The notes under the pieces were generated by a model. That model was not told the origin of the DNA, made no database searches, and saw nothing but the letters and a program-made list of their open reading frames with translations. A DNA stretch of 64,000 bases, taken from the sequence record SRR2962707_940; one strand, 5' to 3'. The translations under genes were made by a program, and so were the position numbers. Shown piece by piece: positions 45,923-54,098 of the stretch (position 1 is its first letter; every line of letters begins with the position of its first letter).

Positions 45923-46621
45923 ATGGGCATGAAGAGAATGCAATCAAATAGACTATTGAGTTTAAAAGCCATCACTGTCGCGCTCGTGCTTGCGAGCGCA
46001 TGTGCCGTTCCACTAAGTGGCCCTGCATTCGCCCAAACTGGCACTGAGATCGCGCCAGCGCCATCGGACGCAATTCCCCTTCCCGAACCGATTCGAAATG
46101 CGGGCAAGCCTATGGTTATTCCGCCAGACGATTTTGCGCCCGAAGAGGCAAAAAAAGTCGAAGTTCTCTACGATATAGACAGTTTGCCTGCGCCGGTTAA
46201 GCGGATGCGCGAATTGATTATAGAAGCGGCGAAAACCGGTGTCCTTGAAAATTTGCGGGCGCTTTTAGGCTCCGGCGATAACCGCACGGAAATTTCCTAT
46301 GGCGATGTCAATGGCGACCCAATTGAAGTGTTGCATTCGCAATCCGGTGATCCTGACGGCCAAGAAATTCTAGCGATTTTAACAGAAGTGCTTGAGGCCG
46401 GCTATGTGCATTTGGATGAAGGCACGGAGCGCGAGCTTTATGTCTGGCCGTATTTTTATGCCATGCAGCTTGAAAAGCTAACGCCGGTTCAGCGCGTTGA
46501 GCTGTTCAAACTGGTCACAGCGGGCGACTATGAGGAAATGGTTTCCTTTGGCGCCTATATCTTTTTCCGAGTTGGCATAACGCCCGATGGGCGCTGGATA
46601 TTCTTCATCGCGGGCGATTAG
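45923..46621 (+). CDS. Conserved hypothetical exported protein
   Basis: Signal peptide, Pro-rich linker, YVWPYF, GAYIFFRVGI, WIFFIAGD; start uncertain. Confidence 0.75.
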   Translation: MGMKRMQSNRLLSLKAITVALVLASACAVPLSGPAFAQTGTEIAPAPSDAIPLPEPIRNAGKPMVIPPDDFAPEEAKKVEVLYDIDSLPAPVKRMRELIIEAAKTGVLENLRALLGSGDNRTEISYGDVNGDPIEVLHSQSGDPDGQEILAILTEVLEAGYVHLDEGTERELYVWPYFYAMQLEKLTPVQRVELFKLVTAGDYEEMVSFGAYIFFRVGITPDGRWIFFIAGD

Positions 46622-47952
46622 AATTTCGGCAGCGCTTCCTGAAACTGTACTGCTTGACCATTGTTTGGCGTTACAATCTCAGCTTCCCACATCACGCGCC
46701 TACCGCGAATGATCGTGCCAACAGGCCAGCCAGTCACTTCTTTCCCATCATAGGGTGTCCAGCCTGCTTTTGAGCCAGCTTGCGCATTGGTGATCGTCAC
46801 TTTGCGTTTCAAATCGACAATCGCAAAGTCAGCATCCCACCCCACAGCAACGCGGCCCTTACGGGCAATGCCAAACAGACGCTGCGGACCGTGCGAAGCC
46901 AAATCGACCAGCCGCTCAAGGCTTAGGCGGCCAGCATTTACATGATCAAGCATGATCGGCAACAATGTTTGCACGCCTGTCATGCCAGATGGTGACGCTG
47001 GATAAGGCTTTGCCTTTTCTTCAAGCAAATGCGGCGCATGATCTGAACCCAGCACATCAATGATGCCCTGTGTCACACCTTCCCAAATGCCAGCCTTATG
47101 ACGCGCTTCGCGCACAGGCGGGTTCATCTGAATGAGATTGCCAAGCGTTGCGTAATCATCGGCTGTGAATGTCAAATGGTGCGGGGTTACTTCGCAGCTT
47201 GCAACATCCTTATTGGCAGCGAGAAAAGGTATCTCTTCGGCTGTTGAAATATGCAGCACGTGAATACGTGCGCGCTCTTTGCGCGCAATCGCAACAAGAC
47301 GCTGCGTACATTGCAAGGCGGCAATTTCATCGCGCCAAACAGGATGCGATGACGGATCGCCTTCAACGCGCAAATCCATACGCTCGCGCAGACGATATTC
47401 GTCCTCAGAATGGAAAGCAGAGCGGCGGCGCGTATTGCGCAAAATTGAAGCAACGCCCTCATCATCTTCCACCAGCAAATTGCCGGTTGATGAACCCATG
47501 AAAACTTTAATACCAGCAGCGCCCGGCAAGCGCTCTAGCTCGCCAACATCGGCTGCATTCTCGCGCGTGCCGCCTACCCAAAACGCAAAATCAGAATGCA
47601 TACGGTTGGTTGCCCGTTTCACCTTATCGGCAAGCGCGGCTTCGTCTGTTGTTAGCGGATTGGTGTTTGGCATTTCGAAAACAGAAGTCACACCGCCCAG
47701 CACTGCGGCCAGCGAACCTGTTTCCAAATCTTCTTTGTGTTCGAGGCCCGGCTCGCGAAAATGTACTTGGCTATCTATAACGCCTGGCAAAATGTGAAGG
47801 CCAGCGCAGTCAATAATCTCGTCGCCAGCGCTTTCAGCAATCGAACCAATATGCGCGATGCGGCCATCTTTAATGCCGATATCGCGCTGACCAATACCGT
47901 CATGATTGACGAGCGTGCCGCCTTTTAAAACCAGATCAAAAACGTTCATCAA
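46618..47952 (-). CDS. pyrC: Dihydroorotase
   Basis: DSQVHFREPG, EMPNTNP, MNPP, GSDHAPH. Confidence 0.88.
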   Translation of the reverse strand: MMNVFDLVLKGGTLVNHDGIGQRDIGIKDGRIAHIGSIAESAGDEIIDCAGLHILPGVIDSQVHFREPGLEHKEDLETGSLAAVLGGVTSVFEMPNTNPLTTDEAALADKVKRATNRMHSDFAFWVGGTRENAADVGELERLPGAAGIKVFMGSSTGNLLVEDDEGVASILRNTRRRSAFHSEDEYRLRERMDLRVEGDPSSHPVWRDEIAALQCTQRLVAIARKERARIHVLHISTAEEIPFLAANKDVASCEVTPHHLTFTADDYATLGNLIQMNPPVREARHKAGIWEGVTQGIIDVLGSDHAPHLLEEKAKPYPASPSGMTGVQTLLPIMLDHVNAGRLSLERLVDLASHGPQRLFGIARKGRVAVGWDADFAIVDLKRKVTITNAQAGSKAGWTPYDGKEVTGWPVGTIIRGRRVMWEAEIVTPNNGQAVQFQEALPKF

Positions 47953-51099: not shown

Positions 51100-52524
51100 T
51101 TACTTCTTGGTGATCACGTAGTAGACGAGAGCGCCCAAGGCTGCGCCGATCACCCAAGAGAAGCCGGATAGGAAACCAAGCGCTGGCATCCAAACGGTTG
51201 CAATTGAGAAGATCGCAGGCAGGATGAAGGCGATAAGCGCTTTCTTGTTCCAGCCATTGTCGTAGTAATATGCGCCGTCTTCTGAGGCAGAGAACAATTG
51301 CTGCACATCCAATTTGCCATGCTTGATCATGTAATAATCAACAATCATGATGCCGTAGACCGGCGCCAAAATCGCACCCAGCGTGTTCACGAAGTTGAAG
51401 ATACCGATCTGGCTGATCGTTGAAACCCAAAGGCCACCAATGACAAGTGCAAAGCCAGACGTGATCAGACCTCCAACGCGGAAGTTGATTTTGCTCGGCA
51501 TTAGGTTTGCCAAATCATAGGCTGGTGGAATGAAGTTCGCCACGAGGTTGATACCAACGGTTGCGGCAAAGAACATGATAGCTGCGATCAATGTTAGAGG
51601 CAGAGAATCAACACGCGCGATAATATCGGTTGGGTTGGTAAGTGCCTCACCCCAGATGGCAACGGTTCCCGCTGTCACGATCAATGCGATCAGTGAGAAG
51701 AATGCGATGTTGAGCGGCAGGCCGGTAAAGTTGCCTTTTTTCATATCGCCTTGTGTTTTTACAAAACGTGAGAAGTCGCCATAATTGATCACCACGGCTG
51801 CAAAATAAGCAATCATCGTGCCGACAATAGCAAGGAATGCGGAGAATGATCCGCCGTCATAATTGCCTGTGCCTTTAAAGATCGTACCCATTTCAGACAT
51901 CAATCCACTGCCTGCTTTTACCCAGATGACAACCGCTAGGATGATCATGACGAGATAAACAAACGGTCCTGCAAAGTTCAGGAATTTGGTGATCCAGTCG
52001 ATACCGTTCCAGAAAAGCCAGATTTGGAACGCCCAGACAGCCAAGAACGAAATCCAATCAATGCCGCTCATGCCCAAGAACACGGGGGCACCATTACCGC
52101 CCATCAAAGAGCTTAGAAGCAACGCAACCGCTGTCGATGCGAAATAAGTCTGCGCTCCATACCAAAAAATCGCGACAATCGCGCGAACGATAGCAGGAAA
52201 GTTAGCGCCCTTGACGCCCATGCTGGCGCGCGCCATCACAGGAAATGGGATGCCATATTTTACGCTTGGCTCACCCATCAGATTGACGAGCCACATCACG
52301 AATAGACCGGCCAACATAATGGCCGCAAAAACAGTCCAGCCATTAAGGCCATAAGATAAGAACAAGGAAGCAGCGAGCGTGTATCCAAACAAGCTCTGCA
52401 CATCATTGGCCCAGACGTTGAATATTTCGAACCAGCCCCATGTTCGTTTTGATTTTGGTATTGGTGCCAAGTCTTCATTATATAGACTCGGATCTTGTTT
52501 TACGATGATTAGATCGTCGCTCAT
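51100..52524 (-). CDS. NCS1 family nucleobase:cation symporter
   Basis: LYNEDLAP...RTW, YGIPFPVMARASMG, WYGAQT, NYGDFSRF, NLVANF; about 12 TMs. Confidence 0.93.
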   Translation of the reverse strand: MSDDLIIVKQDPSLYNEDLAPIPKSKRTWGWFEIFNVWANDVQSLFGYTLAASLFLSYGLNGWTVFAAIMLAGLFVMWLVNLMGEPSVKYGIPFPVMARASMGVKGANFPAIVRAIVAIFWYGAQTYFASTAVALLLSSLMGGNGAPVFLGMSGIDWISFLAVWAFQIWLFWNGIDWITKFLNFAGPFVYLVMIILAVVIWVKAGSGLMSEMGTIFKGTGNYDGGSFSAFLAIVGTMIAYFAAVVINYGDFSRFVKTQGDMKKGNFTGLPLNIAFFSLIALIVTAGTVAIWGEALTNPTDIIARVDSLPLTLIAAIMFFAATVGINLVANFIPPAYDLANLMPSKINFRVGGLITSGFALVIGGLWVSTISQIGIFNFVNTLGAILAPVYGIMIVDYYMIKHGKLDVQQLFSASEDGAYYYDNGWNKKALIAFILPAIFSIATVWMPALGFLSGFSWVIGAALGALVYYVITKK

Positions 52525-52550
52525 TGTTGTCCCCTCTTGTTAAATGATGG

Positions 52551-52611
52551 TTGCACGATACTCTCCACTGAACTAAAATCGTGCATAACTCCGTGCAAAA
52601 TTCGAGCATAA
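52551..52611. promoter_or_regulatory. Phased repeat/operator array between NCS1 and the resolvase-like gene
   Basis: Inverted repeat TGCACGAT-N18-ATCGTGCA; direct repeats CGTGCATAA (52580), CGTGCAAAA (52592), CGAGCATAA (52603). Confidence 0.55.
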
Positions 52612-52657
52612 ATTTGTGGGATGTGTCAAGAAGATTCAACTGGGAGGGGATTTACTT

Positions 52658-53209
52658 GTGAAGATTGGCTACGCGCGCGTTTCGGCCAAATGGTATCAAA
52701 GTGAGATACAAGTCAGCGAACTTGAACGCCAAGGCTGCGATAAGATTTGGAAAGAGGCGAACCTTGAGGATGAACATCCAGACAAGGCTTTGAAGAGCTT
52801 TCTAAAACAAGTATCAAAAGGCGATACGGTGGTGGCGACACGGCTGACTTCTGTTGCCCATTCGCCTGCAGAATTGCTTCAGCTTATGGAAAAAATTCAT
52901 AAAAAAGGTGCATTTTTTCGCTCACTTGCAGAACCTTGGGCCGACACCAGCGTGCACGGTGGTGCGCGGGTGATTGATGCGATTCGCGGCATGATTGATT
53001 TTGAGATCGCGATTGCTGATGCTGAAAGCCGCGTTGAAGAAAACCGCCCACAGAGCTTTGGCTTGTCGCCCGGCAGACCGCAAAAGCTGAAGGAACAGCG
53101 GAGGATGCAAGCAATATCGCTCTTAAAGATTGGCAAATCAGCGGCAGAAATTAGCCGCGTGCTCGGCGTGAGCAGAAGCACGATTTCGCGGCTGCGCAAA
53201 AATATGTAA
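52658..53209 (+). CDS. Serine recombinase (resolvase/invertase) homologue with degenerate active site and intact HTH
   Basis: GTG 52658 after GGAGG; KIGYARVS, GDTVV, FRSL.E..DTS, GRP and a C-terminal HTH; the LDRL.RS motif is replaced by LTSVAHS. Confidence 0.85.
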   Translation: MKIGYARVSAKWYQSEIQVSELERQGCDKIWKEANLEDEHPDKALKSFLKQVSKGDTVVATRLTSVAHSPAELLQLMEKIHKKGAFFRSLAEPWADTSVHGGARVIDAIRGMIDFEIAIADAESRVEENRPQSFGLSPGRPQKLKEQRRMQAISLLKIGKSAAEISRVLGVSRSTISRLRKNM

Positions 53210-53213
53210 GCGC

Positions 53214-54098
53214 CTAGTTCAGCACAATGTCCAAGCCTATATCGAGCGTTGGGGCAGCCATAGTGATTTTGGATGTTGAAATATAATCAACGCCAGTTTC
53301 TGAGATCGCTTTGATGGTCGCAATATTCACATTGCCGGAGGCTTCAAGTTTGACCGCGCCGCCATTATCGGCCTGATTGATGGCAACGGCTTCGCGCAAT
53401 TGATCGTTGCTCATATTGTCGAGCAAAATAGCATCGGGCTTAGCGCTGAGCGCTTTGCGCATCTGATCGAGATTATCGACTTCAATTTCCACTTTGACCA
53501 TATGGCCGACATAGGCACGGGCATTTTCAACCGCCTCAGCCACGCCGCCAGAAACAGCGATATGGTTGTCTTTAATCAGGATTGCATCATCCAACCCATA
53601 GCGATGGTTGGAACCGCCGCCGCAGCGCACAGCATATTTTTCAAATGTGCGTAAGCCCGGAATGGTTTTGCGGGTGTCGCAGACTTTCGCCTCGGTATGC
53701 GCAATTTCTTTGGCAAATTCAGATGTATAGCTCGCAATACCGCACATATGCATGAGGAAGTTGAGTGCCACACGCTCTGCAGAAAGCAATGCACGGGCAT
53801 TGCCTCTAATACGGGCCAATTCATCACCGGGCTTTACGGCATCACCGTCTTTTACAAGCGCTTCAAAAACGATGTTTTCATCCATCAAACGAAACGCTGT
53901 TTCGGCGACCAGCAAGCCGCTCACATAACCTGCATCACGCGAGGCCATAACAGCGGTCGCAGTCGTATCAGGGGCAATCGTCGCATTGGTTGTGATGTCA
54001 CCAGCGCGGCCTAAATCTTCCAGCAAAGCGGCGCGGACAGCCTCTTCAACCATCAATTTTGGTAAGAATGGTGGCAACGCTTTGTTTGCGGCGGTCAT
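53214..54098 (-). CDS. nadC: Quinolinate phosphoribosyltransferase
   Basis: EDLG..GDIT, DTRKT.PGLR, NHRYGL, LIKDNH, EASG. Confidence 0.97.
   Translation of the reverse strand: MTAANKALPPFLPKLMVEEAVRAALLEDLGRAGDITTNATIAPDTTATAVMASRDAGYVSGLLVAETAFRLMDENIVFEALVKDGDAVKPGDELARIRGNARALLSAERVALNFLMHMCGIASYTSEFAKEIAHTEAKVCDTRKTIPGLRTFEKYAVRCGGGSNHRYGLDDAILIKDNHIAVSGGVAEAVENARAYVGHMVKVEIEVDNLDQMRKALSAKPDAILLDNMSNDQLREAVAINQADNGGAVKLEASGNVNIATIKAISETGVDYISTSKITMAAPTLDIGLDIVLN

What the first reader, a model, noticed from the sequence alone, without database searches (positions are those of the whole stretch)
52658..53209. Catalytically eroded serine resolvase with intact HTH: a candidate recombinase domesticated as a transcription regulator
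Seen: the 183-aa ORF is intact, has a good SD, and keeps the resolvase scaffold (IGYARVS with the nucleophile Ser, GDTVV, FRSL.E..DT, GRP arm, full HTH SAAEISRVLGVSRSTISRL). Compared with the Tn3/gamma-delta/Hin consensus (established knowledge), the other catalytic positions are lost together. STxxQ becomes SAKWY. The SG...RP loop becomes ANLEDEHPD. LDRLGRS (D67/R68/R71) becomes LTSVAHS. The helix-E ER..I.ER becomes EIAIADAES. No transposase, cassette or invertible segment is nearby, and the stop lies 4 bp from the nadC stop. Inference: selective loss of catalytic arginines without frameshift or stop suggests a retained non-catalytic role. One option is a DNA-binding repressor, perhaps with the old catalytic pocket reused for ligand sensing, controlling the divergent NCS1 transporter in the classic regulator/target layout.
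Basis: partly seen in the sequence, partly recalled or inferred. Interest (0 to 1): 0.78.

Follow-up and report, generated by a model that had tools for sequence, protein, structure and literature searches.

The report
Dead resolvase turned transporter-gene regulator
A small DNA-cutting enzyme (a serine resolvase) has lost key cutting residues but kept its DNA-binding parts, and in every relative found it sits beside the same transporter gene with a conserved row of short DNA repeats between them, so it most likely now works as that gene's switch.

Summary
Window 52658-53209(+) encodes an intact 183-aa small-serine-recombinase homologue. It keeps the fold, Y6/R8/S10, the GRP arm and the HTH. 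It lacks D67 and R68, and mostly R71 and R45.

It is not a one-off. About 60 proteins of 43-91% identity form one clade with the same losses, and dN/dS is 0.04-0.19.

The NCS1 permease gene lies divergently next to it in 27 of 27 fetched loci plus the window. nadC is never linked.

The shared intergenic region always carries 2-4 head-to-tail 12-bp units, CGTGCAWAA, on one strand. At one mismatch or fewer, the two-unit pattern occurs only there in five genomes. The units share a TGCAWA core with sites upstream of catalytically intact relatives.

Best reading (about 0.72): a recombinase exapted as a dedicated DNA-binding regulator of the NCS1 gene and of itself. This keeps the repressor half of Tn3/gamma-delta TnpR. 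The sign of regulation, the ligand and DNA binding itself are untested.

Eight literature searches found no such case. Verdict: new variant of a known kind, interest about 0.7.

The parts
52658..53209 (+). REG: 183-aa catalytically eroded small serine recombinase homologue (GTG start, TAA stop)
   Evidence: orthologues share the start; AF2 model pLDDT 84.2; Foldseek top hits are 1gdt_A, 5cy1 and 2r0q
52658..52957 (+). Resolvase-fold alpha/beta core (aa 1-100). Y5/R7/S9 are kept. The clade signature is K11-W12-Y13 and W31. T64/S65/H68 stand in place of D67/R68/R71
   Evidence: N-domain dN/dS 0.04-0.18 in 13 unsaturated pairs
52964..53038 (+). Helix E (aa 103-127), the predicted dimer interface
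   Evidence: DSSP helix 103-127; homodimer model interface is residues 62-73, 92-95 and 100-122
53072..53080 (+). G139-R140-P141 arm, the counterpart of the minor-groove arm of resolvases and invertases
   Evidence: 61 of 61 family members keep G, R and P; aligned to GRP of Gin and GR of gamma-delta
53093..53203 (+). C-terminal helix-turn-helix domain (aa 146-182); recognition helix VSRSTISR is invariant
   Evidence: HTH_23, HTH_38 and HTH_7; invariant columns; helices 146-157, 162-169 and 173-182
52580..52629 (+). Operator-like array of head-to-tail 12-bp units: CGTGCATAACTC (52580), CGTGCAAAATT (52592), CGAGCATAAATT (52603), a degenerate TGTGGGATGT (52615), then GTCAA (52625-52629)
   Evidence: the same array is in all 23 unique intergenic sequences of relatives
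52525..52657 (.). Shared 133-bp divergent intergenic region between NCS1 and REG
   Evidence: no sigma-70 consensus promoter was called
51100..52524 (-). NCS1-family permease (474 aa), the conserved partner and presumed target gene
   Evidence: PF02133, E 1.4e-84; below the equivalog cut-offs for allantoin permease; adjacent and divergent in 27 of 27 loci

Best explanation
REG is an exapted small serine recombinase that no longer recombines DNA. It works as a dedicated sequence-specific DNA-binding regulator.

Shown at sequence level:
- It keeps the resolvase fold, the helix-E dimer surface, the GRP minor-groove arm and an invariant HTH.
- It has lost the D67/R68 pair in every member, and R71 and R45 in nearly every member.
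- It is under strong purifying selection.
- It always forms a two-gene module with one NCS1 permease subclade.
- The divergent promoter region always carries 2-4 head-to-tail 12-bp units, CGTGCA-WAA-nnn, close to the REG start.

Inferred:
- Each unit is a half-site. The HTH reads CGTGCA in the major groove and the GRP arm reads the following A/T tract in the minor groove, as in gamma-delta, Hin and Gin.
- Dimers, possibly two side by side, occupy the array and control transcription of the NCS1 gene and of REG itself.
- This is the regulatory half of the Tn3/gamma-delta circuit (tnpA-res-tnpR, where TnpR bound at res represses both genes), with the transposase gene replaced by a transporter gene and the crossover site gone.
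- Repression is somewhat more likely than activation, about 60:40, by that analogy and because the array abuts the REG start.

Whether the remodelled former active-site region (R7, S9, K11, W12, Y13, W31) senses the transported compound is open, at about 30%.
For: (1) Family. One search gave 93 homologues. P0002-P0061 (43-91% identity) share the losses, and relatives at 36% identity or less are canonical. In 61 aligned members:
- the R68 position is S in 46 and A in 15, so 0 of 61 Arg;
- the D67 position has 0 of 61 Asp;
- the R71 position has 4 of 61 Arg;
- W12 and W31 are 61 of 61, and G-R-P is 61 of 61.

(2) The clade lies on one side of a branch with support 100/95 in a 39-row tree. A partly eroded form, P0215, lies between it and the canonical rows.

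(3) Nei-Gojobori dN/dS was computed for 19 pairs. For the whole gene, 14 pairs gave 0.036-0.189 and 5 were saturated. For the N-domain alone, 13 pairs gave 0.036-0.184.

(4) The NCS1 orthologue (72-92% identity) is divergently adjacent in 6 of 6 genome loci and 21 of 21 metagenome loci. No other neighbour is conserved. In a sample of 151 Rhodobacterales genomes, the 2 with NCS1 at 73% identity or more have REG next to it. The 12 with homologues at 56-66% identity do not. In those, 6 of 10 upstream ORFs scanned are divergent GntR/FCD (5) or RpiR (1) regulators. REG therefore fills a regulator slot.

(5) Operator. In 23 unique intergenic sequences there are 84 units on the REG strand against 6 on the other. 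Of 61 spacings, 34 are 12 bp and 10 are 24 bp. The last unit starts 37-42 nt before the REG start in 17 of 23.

(6) The two-unit pattern with one mismatch or fewer occurs 7 times in five genomes, all at this locus. CGTGCA-N6-CGTGCA is found in 3 of 80 loci, all of this clade.

(7) Canonical relatives carry TGCAAAA-type half-sites upstream of their genes. A Xanthobacter plasmid recombinase with the same VSRSTISRL helix has three same-strand TGCAWAW copies upstream.

(8) Olorunniji & Stark 2009 (abstract read): mutating Y6, R8, S10, D36, R68 or R71 of Tn3 resolvase greatly reduced cleavage and recombination, while no mutation strongly inhibited site I binding.

(9) The homodimer model scored 0.67, with the best of 3 controls at 0.00. 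That mark was reached by 20 of 30 proteins solved as pairs of one chain and by 1 of 23 solved as single chains. The runs agree in at least 65% of contacts and pLDDT is at least 71. Resolvase dimers are solved, so the pass may reflect likeness only.

(10) There is one degenerate copy per genome in 5 of 5 genomes. Two of them, G002 and G005, show no other serine recombinase hit at E<=1e-5.
Against: - There is no direct evidence of DNA binding or of any effect on transcription.
- No sigma-70-type promoter could be placed in the intergenic region, so the array cannot be positioned relative to a promoter and the sign of regulation is unknown.
- Y6, R8 and S10 are retained (58 of 59, 59 of 59 and 60 of 61). 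A pure DNA-binding role does not obviously require them.
- Head-to-tail tandem half-sites at 12-bp spacing are not the geometry of a classical resolvase dimer site.
- In the four loci with intergenic regions of about 290 bp, the main array stays beside REG, about 240 bp from the NCS1 start. Only weaker units lie near NCS1, so autoregulation is better supported than NCS1 control there.
- NCS1 orthologues at 69% identity or more number over 120 clusters, more than the roughly 60 REG clusters. Some close orthologues may therefore lack REG.
- The window's own gene gave only synonymous-saturated pairs, so its dN/dS was not estimable.
Confidence: 0.72

Rival explanations
1. REG is still an active site-specific recombinase, for example a phase-variation invertase or a resolvase acting on the repeat array, using S9/R7 with substitute residues.
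For: Y5, R7 and S9 are retained in nearly all members. The fold and the predicted dimer interface are intact. Repeats lie next to the gene, as res sites do.
Against: - The R68 position has 0 of 61 Arg, the D67 position 0 of 61 Asp and the R71 position 4 of 61 Arg. R68 and R71 mutants of Tn3 resolvase are greatly reduced in cleavage (abstract).
- The units are head-to-tail, 84 against 6 by strand, with no palindromic crossover-type pair such as canonical relatives have.
- No flanking inverted repeats were found in 49-56 kb.
- All 28 loci show the same orientation of array and genes.
- One member, P0057, has Ala at the nucleophile position.
Confidence: 0.05
2. REG is a DNA-binding protein whose main role is not control of the NCS1 gene. 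It could be autoregulation only, an architectural or looping factor, or a non-catalytic accessory subunit for a canonical recombinase encoded elsewhere.
For: The array keeps a fixed distance to the REG start rather than to NCS1. In the long intergenic regions it is about 240 bp from NCS1. G001, G003 and G004 carry canonical serine recombinase genes elsewhere.
Against: - The only conserved neighbour in 27 of 27 loci is the NCS1 gene, always divergent. That is hard to explain without a functional tie.
- G002 and G005 show no other serine recombinase hit at E<=1e-5.
- The two-unit site is unique to this locus in 5 genomes, so there are no distant targets of that form.
- Homologous NCS1 genes elsewhere have classical regulators in the same position.
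Confidence: 0.15
3. REG is a decaying remnant of a mobile element with no function.
For: It is annotated only as 'recombinase family protein' or 'transposase' in public records. The catalytic residues are lost. One metagenome copy (L095) reads as two frames.
Against: - dN/dS is 0.04-0.19.
- Frames are intact in 22 of 23 coding sequences extracted.
- New invariant residues have appeared (W12, W31).
- The clade spans several orders of Alpha- and Gammaproteobacteria with conserved synteny.
Confidence: 0.02
4. REG acts on the transporter at the protein level, for example as a cytoplasmic partner or sensor of the permease, and the DNA repeats are unrelated promoter elements.
For: There is strict gene pairing, and the N-terminal domain is strongly conserved with no known role.
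Against: The most conserved parts of REG are the HTH and the GRP arm, which are invariant. The repeat units resemble the half-sites of canonical relatives. No membrane-association feature was seen in the model.
Confidence: 0.04

Closest known systems
Tn3 / gamma-delta resolvase TnpR (small serine recombinase that also represses tnpA and tnpR by binding res between the divergent genes; the repressor role is recalled textbook knowledge, the structures are 1gdt and 5cy1)
   Same: Same fold and domain order: catalytic-type alpha/beta domain, helix E, arm, HTH. The gene sits divergently from a second gene, with multiple binding-site-like repeats in the shared promoter region.
   Different: D67, R68, R45 and mostly R71 are lost. 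There is no palindromic crossover site and the units are all head-to-tail. The partner gene is a transporter, not a transposase. The locus is chromosomal and single-copy, with no mobile-element genes nearby.
Gin / Hin DNA invertases (4m6f, 3uj3)
   Same: These are the best sequence matches among solved structures (E 6e-13). The G-R-P arm and the HTH are aligned.
   Different: There is no invertible segment, no flanking inverted sites and no catalytic Arg pair. Identity is about 28%.
Sin resolvase bound to res site II (2r0q)
   Same: It ranks 3rd in Foldseek. That Sin site II consists of direct-repeat half-sites bound by a dimer is recalled from Mouw et al. 2008 (PMC2428073), of which I saw only the search listing and the start of the abstract. 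If so, it is a precedent for a serine-recombinase dimer on head-to-tail sites in a purely regulatory role.
   Different: Sin is catalytically active and site II is an accessory part of a recombination site. Here only the regulatory-type sites remain.
Closest canonical relatives (P0063-P0094, for example Xanthobacter plasmid recombinases; L117)
   Same: They share FRSLAEPWADT, GRP.KL and the identical recognition helix VSRSTISRL. TGCAWAW-type motifs lie upstream of the gene.
   Different: They keep VSTxGQT, EKASG..DRR, IDRLARS and ERDLIRTRT. They sit on plasmids beside ParA and toxin-antitoxin genes, with no NCS1 neighbour.
GntR/FCD and RpiR regulators divergent from NCS1 homologues
   Same: They hold the same genomic slot, divergently upstream of an NCS1 permease at 56-66% identity.
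   Different: The protein family is unrelated. They have a classical ligand-binding domain.
Nuclease-dead mobile-element proteins reused as transcription factors, for example TldR from TnpB (recalled; seen only as a listing)
   Same: The same evolutionary route: a mobile-element enzyme loses catalysis but keeps target recognition and becomes a regulator.
   Different: The fold is different and recognition is RNA-guided. I found no serine-recombinase example.

Membership tests
Small serine recombinases (resolvase/invertase, PF00239 + PF02796) | Resolvase alpha/beta domain, then helix E, then a C-terminal HTH, about 180-200 aa | tested here: met
   PF00239 at 50.9 bits and HTH_7 at 24.6 bits, both above the gathering scores. 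AF2 model pLDDT 84.2. Foldseek top hits 1gdt_A, 5cy1 and 2r0q with probability 1.00.
Small serine recombinases (resolvase/invertase, PF00239 + PF02796) | Nucleophile Ser10 with Tyr6 and Arg8 | tested here: met
   Y5, R7 and S9 are aligned to Y6, R8 and S10. In the family: 58 of 59, 59 of 59 and 60 of 61.
Small serine recombinases (resolvase/invertase, PF00239 + PF02796) | Catalytic Asp67-Arg68 and Arg71 (the LDRLGR motif) | tested here: not met
   The window has T64, S65 and H68. In the family: D 0 of 61, R 0 of 61 and R 4 of 61. R68 and R71 are crucial in Tn3 resolvase (abstract).
Small serine recombinases (resolvase/invertase, PF00239 + PF02796) | Asp36, Ser39 and Arg45 loop | tested here: not met
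   E33 is conservative (family: E 33, D 18, other 10). L36 stands for S39. There is at most 1 of 61 Arg at either candidate R45 column. The loop is hypervariable, with pLDDT about 64.
Small serine recombinases (resolvase/invertase, PF00239 + PF02796) | Helix-E residues E118, R119, R121, E124 and R125 | tested here: inconclusive
   E116 is kept in 55 of 61. The R119 and R121 positions are hydrophobic. R125 is kept in 53 of 61, but the alignment has a 2-residue indel here.
Small serine recombinases (resolvase/invertase, PF00239 + PF02796) | A cognate crossover site: two half-sites in inverted orientation | tested here: not met
   Units are 84 against 6 by strand and head-to-tail. The loose-pattern 'pairs' in 6 of 23 regions are unit junctions, not palindromes. 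True palindromes (TGCAAAAC-N6-GTTTTGCA type) are present upstream of canonical relatives.
Small serine recombinases (resolvase/invertase, PF00239 + PF02796) | Catalyses DNA cleavage and strand exchange | not testable with these tools
   This needs an in vitro or in vivo recombination assay.
TnpR-type autoregulatory repressor function (works-like, not a sequence family) | Multiple binding sites in the promoter region shared with a divergent gene | tested here: met
   There are 2-4 units in all 23 unique intergenic regions. At one mismatch or fewer the two-unit pattern is unique to this locus in 5 genomes.
TnpR-type autoregulatory repressor function (works-like, not a sequence family) | The protein binds these sites and lowers transcription | not testable with these tools
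   No RNA run holds the stretch. No promoter could be called.
One-component ligand-responsive regulators | A sensor domain that binds a small molecule | not testable with these tools
   There is only indirect evidence: purifying selection on the N-domain and clade-specific invariant W12 and W31 with near-invariant K11 and Y13.
NCS1 nucleobase:cation symporter family (the neighbour gene) | PF02133 domain over the full length | tested here: met
   E 1.4e-84, residues 21-460. It scores below the NCBIfam equivalog cut-offs for allantoin permease (266 against 620 bits). The only solved relative is Mhp1, at 81 bits. The substrate is unknown.

The most novel reading that the evidence does not exclude
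The whole Tn3-like regulatory circuit was domesticated: protein, binding sites and divergent layout. The emptied active-site region (R7, S9, K11, W12, Y13, W31) has become a small-molecule pocket that senses the permease's substrate. If so, this is a previously unrecognised class of ligand-responsive transcription factor built on the serine-recombinase fold. Its head-to-tail operator would descend from res accessory sites, possibly with resolvase-style dimer-dimer synapsis reused for DNA looping in the loci with long intergenic regions.
Probability: 0.3. Interest if true: 0.85.

Novelty: new variant of a known kind. Interest (0 to 1): 0.7.

Why it matters
Serine recombinases are textbook enzymes and genome-engineering tools. 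TnpR's second job as a repressor is long known. I found no report of a lineage that dropped catalysis and kept only regulation (searches; the passages read in review PMC8987985 list none).

This clade offers three things:
- A natural separation-of-function variant. It shows which residues the fold, dimer and DNA binding need and which catalysis needs.
- A clear case of a mobile-element protein and its DNA sites being co-opted together for host gene control.
- A compact protein-operator pair, a 183-aa protein with 12-bp units, that may be orthogonal and could be tested as a synthetic-biology part.

It also warns that 'recombinase family protein' or 'transposase' annotations next to transporters can hide regulators. 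It gives a handle on an uncharacterised, widely distributed marine NCS1 permease.

Tried and rejected
- Whole-genome relatives of the window: no genome is held. I worked from genomes reached through loci instead.
- A search of 400 other Alphaproteobacteria around G002 found no further member at E<=1e-30. Only up to 8 candidates per genome were scored, so this shows rarity in that sample, not absence.
- PLSDB plasmids: 72 records matched, all at 37% identity or less. No clade member is on a plasmid in that collection.
- Promoter scan of 52400-53400: 0 sigma-70-like sites. Hand inspection of TTGAC(A/T) on the NCS1 strand (the GTCAA after the last unit) found no -10 at proper spacing, so it was dropped as a promoter call.
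- The single-unit motif CGTGCAWAA with one mismatch or fewer is not enriched in the window as a whole: 41 found against 58.8 expected. Only the cluster is special.
- Sequencing runs: no RNA holder is listed, and the best holders carry 0.23 of the words or less.
- PADLOC gave only weak HTH-type hits (Csa3, E 3.8e-4). PHROGs gave DNA invertase phrog_125. There is no sign of a defence or phage context.
- NCBIfam has no model for this clade. The best hits, XisF and Mpi, are far below their cut-offs.
- The search of earlier findings by sequence returned nothing.
- The loose pattern for head-to-head site pairs produced junction artefacts in 6 of 23 clade regions. I do not count these as palindromes.
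- Substrate of the permease: no conserved metabolic neighbour, only a distant match to Mhp1, and the literature listing gave no match. It is left unknown.
- Supplementary files of papers were not consulted.
Full report
**1. The observation**

Window 52658-53209(+) is an intact 183-aa ORF with a GTG start and a TAA stop. GGGAGGGG lies 8 nt upstream of the start.

Pfam finds the resolvase N-terminal domain (PF00239, 50.9 bits, E 2.4e-13, residues 3-122). It also finds homeodomain-like and resolvase-type HTH models at residues 139-182. Both pass their gathering scores.

Among solved structures the best matches are Gin invertase (4m6f, E 6.1e-13) and gamma-delta and Tn3 resolvases. The residue-by-residue alignments give this mapping:
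- Y6, R8 and S10 are kept as Y5, R7 and S9.
- Q13 and Q14 become W12 and Y13.
- D36 becomes E33 and S39 becomes L36.
- D67, R68 and R71 become T64, S65 and H68.
- R119 and R121 become I117 and I119.
- E118 is kept, and possibly R125.

The REG stop and the nadC stop codon (starting at 53214) are 4 bp apart.

The genes from 46 to 60 kb are housekeeping genes: an amidohydrolase, a YgfZ/CAF17-like protein, a YfbR-like protein, MscS, NCS1, NadC/B/A, an MFS protein, RecO and Era. No notable inverted repeats flank the region. The only correction is that helix E is not wholly eroded.

**2. It is a family, not an accident**

A search of 5.8 billion proteins returned 93 homologues. P0002-P0061 (91-43% identity) come from Hyphomicrobiales MAGs, Hoeflea, Sneathiella, Pelagibius, Veronia and Grimontia. 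They share the same substitutions. Relatives at 36% identity or less (for example Xanthobacter and Pigmentiphaga) are canonical, with VSTxGQT, EKASG..DRR, IDRLARS and ERDLIRTRT.

Column counts in the 61-row alignment:

| Position (gamma-delta numbering) | Residues in 61 members |
|---|---|
| R68 | S 46, A 15 (no Arg) |
| D67 | no Asp |
| R71 | Arg in 4 |
| either candidate R45 column | Arg in at most 1 |
| Y6 | kept in 58 of 59 |
| R8 | kept in 59 of 59 |
| S10 | kept in 60 of 61 (one Veronia protein has Ala) |
| W12, W31 (new) | 61 of 61 each |
| Y13 (new) | 60 of 61 |
| K11 (new) | 58 of 61 |
| G139-R140-P141 arm | 61 of 61 |

The recognition helix VSRSTISR is also invariant.

A profile search of 1.84 billion cluster representatives found 20,454 relatives at E<=1e-3. 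Only three scored high (277, 247 and 231 bits), followed by a gap down to 156 bits. The clade is therefore compact. The third, P0215, is partly eroded: it has RWH, and LDQIARS with D67 and R71 kept and R68 changed to Q.

In a 39-row maximum-likelihood tree the 21 degenerate rows lie on one side of a branch (support 100/95). P0215 branches between them and the 17 canonical rows. This is consistent with one origin, though the tree is unrooted.

**3. Selection**

I computed Nei-Gojobori dN/dS for 19 pairs.
- Whole gene: 14 pairs gave 0.036-0.189. Five pairs, including all pairs with the window's own gene, were saturated at synonymous sites.
- N-terminal domain alone (residues 2-135): 13 pairs gave 0.036-0.184.

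The eroded domain is as constrained as the HTH. It is not decaying.

**4. Genomic context**

I fetched two sets of loci:
- 80 loci from species-representative genomes, of which 6 (L001-L006) belong to the clade;
- 21 loci from metagenomes, using a query restricted to the clade-specific N-terminal part.

An NCS1 permease orthologue of 72-92% identity lies divergently upstream of REG in 6 of 6 and 21 of 21. Two of these are cut by contig ends (L083, L102). nadC is present in none. All-against-all comparison of neighbours shows no other shared gene, apart from L003 and L004, which are near-identical contexts.

Further points on distribution:
- REG is single-copy in each of five genomes. Two of them show no other serine recombinase hit at E<=1e-5.
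- It was not found in 400 other sampled Alphaproteobacteria, nor on PLSDB plasmids at more than 37% identity.
- In a sample of 151 Rhodobacterales genomes, 14 have an NCS1 hit at E<=1e-150. The two at 73% identity or more have REG beside it. The twelve at 56-66% do not have it within 1.5 kb.
- Of ten upstream ORFs I scanned in those genomes, five are divergent GntR/FCD regulators, one is RpiR/SIS, one is a GCS2 enzyme and three have no family.

REG thus occupies the position that classical regulators hold next to homologous permeases. A caveat: NCS1 clusters at 69% identity or more (over 120 listed) outnumber REG clusters, so REG-less close orthologues may exist.

**5. A conserved cis-element**

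The NCS1-REG intergenic region (105-295 bp) always carries head-to-tail 12-bp units on the REG strand. There are 23 different sequences among the 28 loci. The unit consensus is (C/G)CGTGCA-(A/T)(A/T)A-nnn, and the last unit is followed by GTCAA.

In the window the units start at 52580, 52592 and 52603. A degenerate fourth starts at 52615, and GTCAA is at 52625-52629.

With a core of one mismatch or fewer, the counts are as follows:
- There are 84 units on the REG strand and 6 on the other.
- Of 61 spacings, 34 are 12 bp and 10 are 24 bp.
- The last unit starts 37-42 nt before the REG start codon in 17 of 23 sequences.

The single unit is not enriched in the window: 41 matches against 58.8 expected. 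The tandem arrangement, however, is unique. CGTGCA-N6-CGTGCA occurs in 3 of 80 loci, all of this clade.

In five whole genomes the two-unit pattern gave 24 matches at two mismatches or fewer. All 7 matches with one mismatch or fewer are at this locus. Another 14 two-mismatch matches lie elsewhere, about the same as the 15 matches of the reversed control pattern.

Four loci with intergenic regions of about 290 bp keep the main array beside REG. Three of them have a second, weaker set of units near the NCS1 start.

**6. Link to real recombination sites**

Upstream of canonical relatives I see half-sites of the type (T/C)(T/G)GCAAAA. Some are arranged as true palindromes, such as TGCAAAAC-TTCTAA-GTTTTGCA, about 130 bp upstream, with further copies nearer the gene.

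A Xanthobacter plasmid recombinase with the same VSRSTISRL recognition helix has three same-strand TGCAWAW copies upstream of its gene.

The clade's unit shares this TGCAWA(A) core. No palindromic pair exists in the clade's regions. The six pattern hits are junctions between tandem units. The simplest reading is that the array descends from res-type binding sites and that the crossover site has been lost. This is inference.

**7. Structure**

An AlphaFold2 model built on the 61-row alignment has mean pLDDT 84.2. It shows the strand-helix core, a long helix 103-127 and a three-helix C-terminal domain. Foldseek ranks 1gdt_A, 5cy1 and 2r0q first, with probability 1.00.

A two-copy complex model scored 0.67, with the best of three controls at 0.00.
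- That mark was reached by 20 of 30 proteins solved as pairs of one chain and by 1 of 23 solved as single chains.
- The runs agree in at least 65% of contacts, and pLDDT is at least 71.
- The interface is helix E plus residues 62-73 and 92-95.

Resolvase dimers are solved, so this pass may reflect likeness rather than independent evidence.

**8. Mechanism**

Shown: loss of residues that are crucial in Tn3 resolvase. Olorunniji & Stark 2009 (abstract read) report that Y6, R8, S10, D36, R68 and R71 mutants are greatly reduced in cleavage and recombination, while no mutation strongly inhibited site I binding. Also shown are retention and invariance of the DNA-binding parts, purifying selection, an obligatory pairing with one permease subclade, and a locus-specific repeat array.

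Inferred: REG dimers bind the array. The HTH would contact CGTGCA and the GRP arm the A/T tract. Binding would regulate the two divergent genes, as TnpR does at res between tnpA and tnpR (textbook knowledge, recalled).

I could not place promoters and found no RNA data. Repressor against activator therefore stays open; I lean 60:40 to repressor.

Retention of Y5, R7 and S9, together with the new K11-W12-Y13 and W31, is unexplained by DNA binding alone. It could reflect fold constraints or a new ligand pocket, which I put at about 30%. The permease's substrate is unknown. It scores below the equivalog cut-offs, its only solved relative is Mhp1 at 81 bits, and no metabolic gene is linked.

**9. 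Comparison and novelty**

[quoted passage not shown] It fails the catalytic-motif and crossover-site criteria, so I do not file it as a recombinase. It works like the repressor half of TnpR.

Eight full-text searches and passages of the review PMC8987985 on recruitment of mobile-element genes turned up no catalytically dead small serine recombinase acting as a transcription factor, and no link between NCS1 and a resolvase. Subscription-only literature and supplementary files were not searched. Public records call these proteins 'recombinase family protein', 'transposase' or 'DNA invertase Pin-like'.

Verdict: a new variant of a known kind. The confidence is 0.72 that it is a non-recombining DNA-binding regulator tied to the NCS1 gene, and the interest is about 0.7.

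Noticed in passing
P0215 (protein; no locus available): A partly eroded relative, 42% identical. It has RWH instead of KWY, keeps D67 and R71 (LDQIARS) but has R68 changed to Q and an altered helix E. In the tree it branches between the canonical and degenerate groups, so it is a possible evolutionary intermediate. Its gene neighbourhood could not be fetched.
   Followed up: partly
L005, L092, L094-L100, L102, L103, L104 (about 1.5 kb beyond the first NCS1 gene): In the HTCC2150-like Rhodobacteraceae group the REG-linked NCS1 gene is followed in tandem by a second NCS1 paralogue. It is 55-58% identical to the window's permease wherever more than a contig-end fragment of it is held.
   Followed up: no
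L095:4977-5515 and L090:4460-4627: One metagenome copy of REG (L095) aligns in two frames that switch at about 5345. One NCS1 copy (L090) aligns in two pieces. These are frameshifts or assembly errors and were not resolved.
   Followed up: no
window 52551-52557 (minus-strand reading): A single opposite-strand copy of the unit core (CGTGCAA when read on the minus strand) lies 23 bp on the NCS1 side of the array. A similar one occurs in the close relative L082. I looked in only a few other relatives by eye, without a systematic scan, and those showed weaker or no copies.
   Followed up: partly
L009:5870-5950, L016, L017, L019, L024, L026 (upstream of canonical recombinase genes): Legionella/Fluoribacter-type and other canonical relatives carry res-like regions. 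A perfect palindrome of the type TGCAAAAC-N6-GTTTTGCA lies about 130 bp upstream, and a second pair, TGCAAAAGTCTATTGTTTTGCG, about 55 bp upstream.
   Followed up: partly
P0001 residues 34-182: There is a weak PADLOC hit to Csa3, a CARF-HTH regulator (E 3.8e-4, 18.4 bits). It is probably driven by the HTH, but it covers most of the protein.
   Followed up: no
L004 (JBALWO010000022.1, titled a Pseudomonas marincola MAG): This contig is almost identical in gene order to L003 (an uncultured alphaproteobacterium MAG), and its REG and NCS1 genes are alphaproteobacterial in type. The contig may be mis-binned.
   Followed up: no
window 46618-47952(-): An amidohydrolase-family gene (PF01979) lies about 3 kb from the NCS1 gene. 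Hydantoinases and dihydropyrimidinases belong to this superfamily, but the gene is not conserved next to the module in other loci.
   Followed up: no
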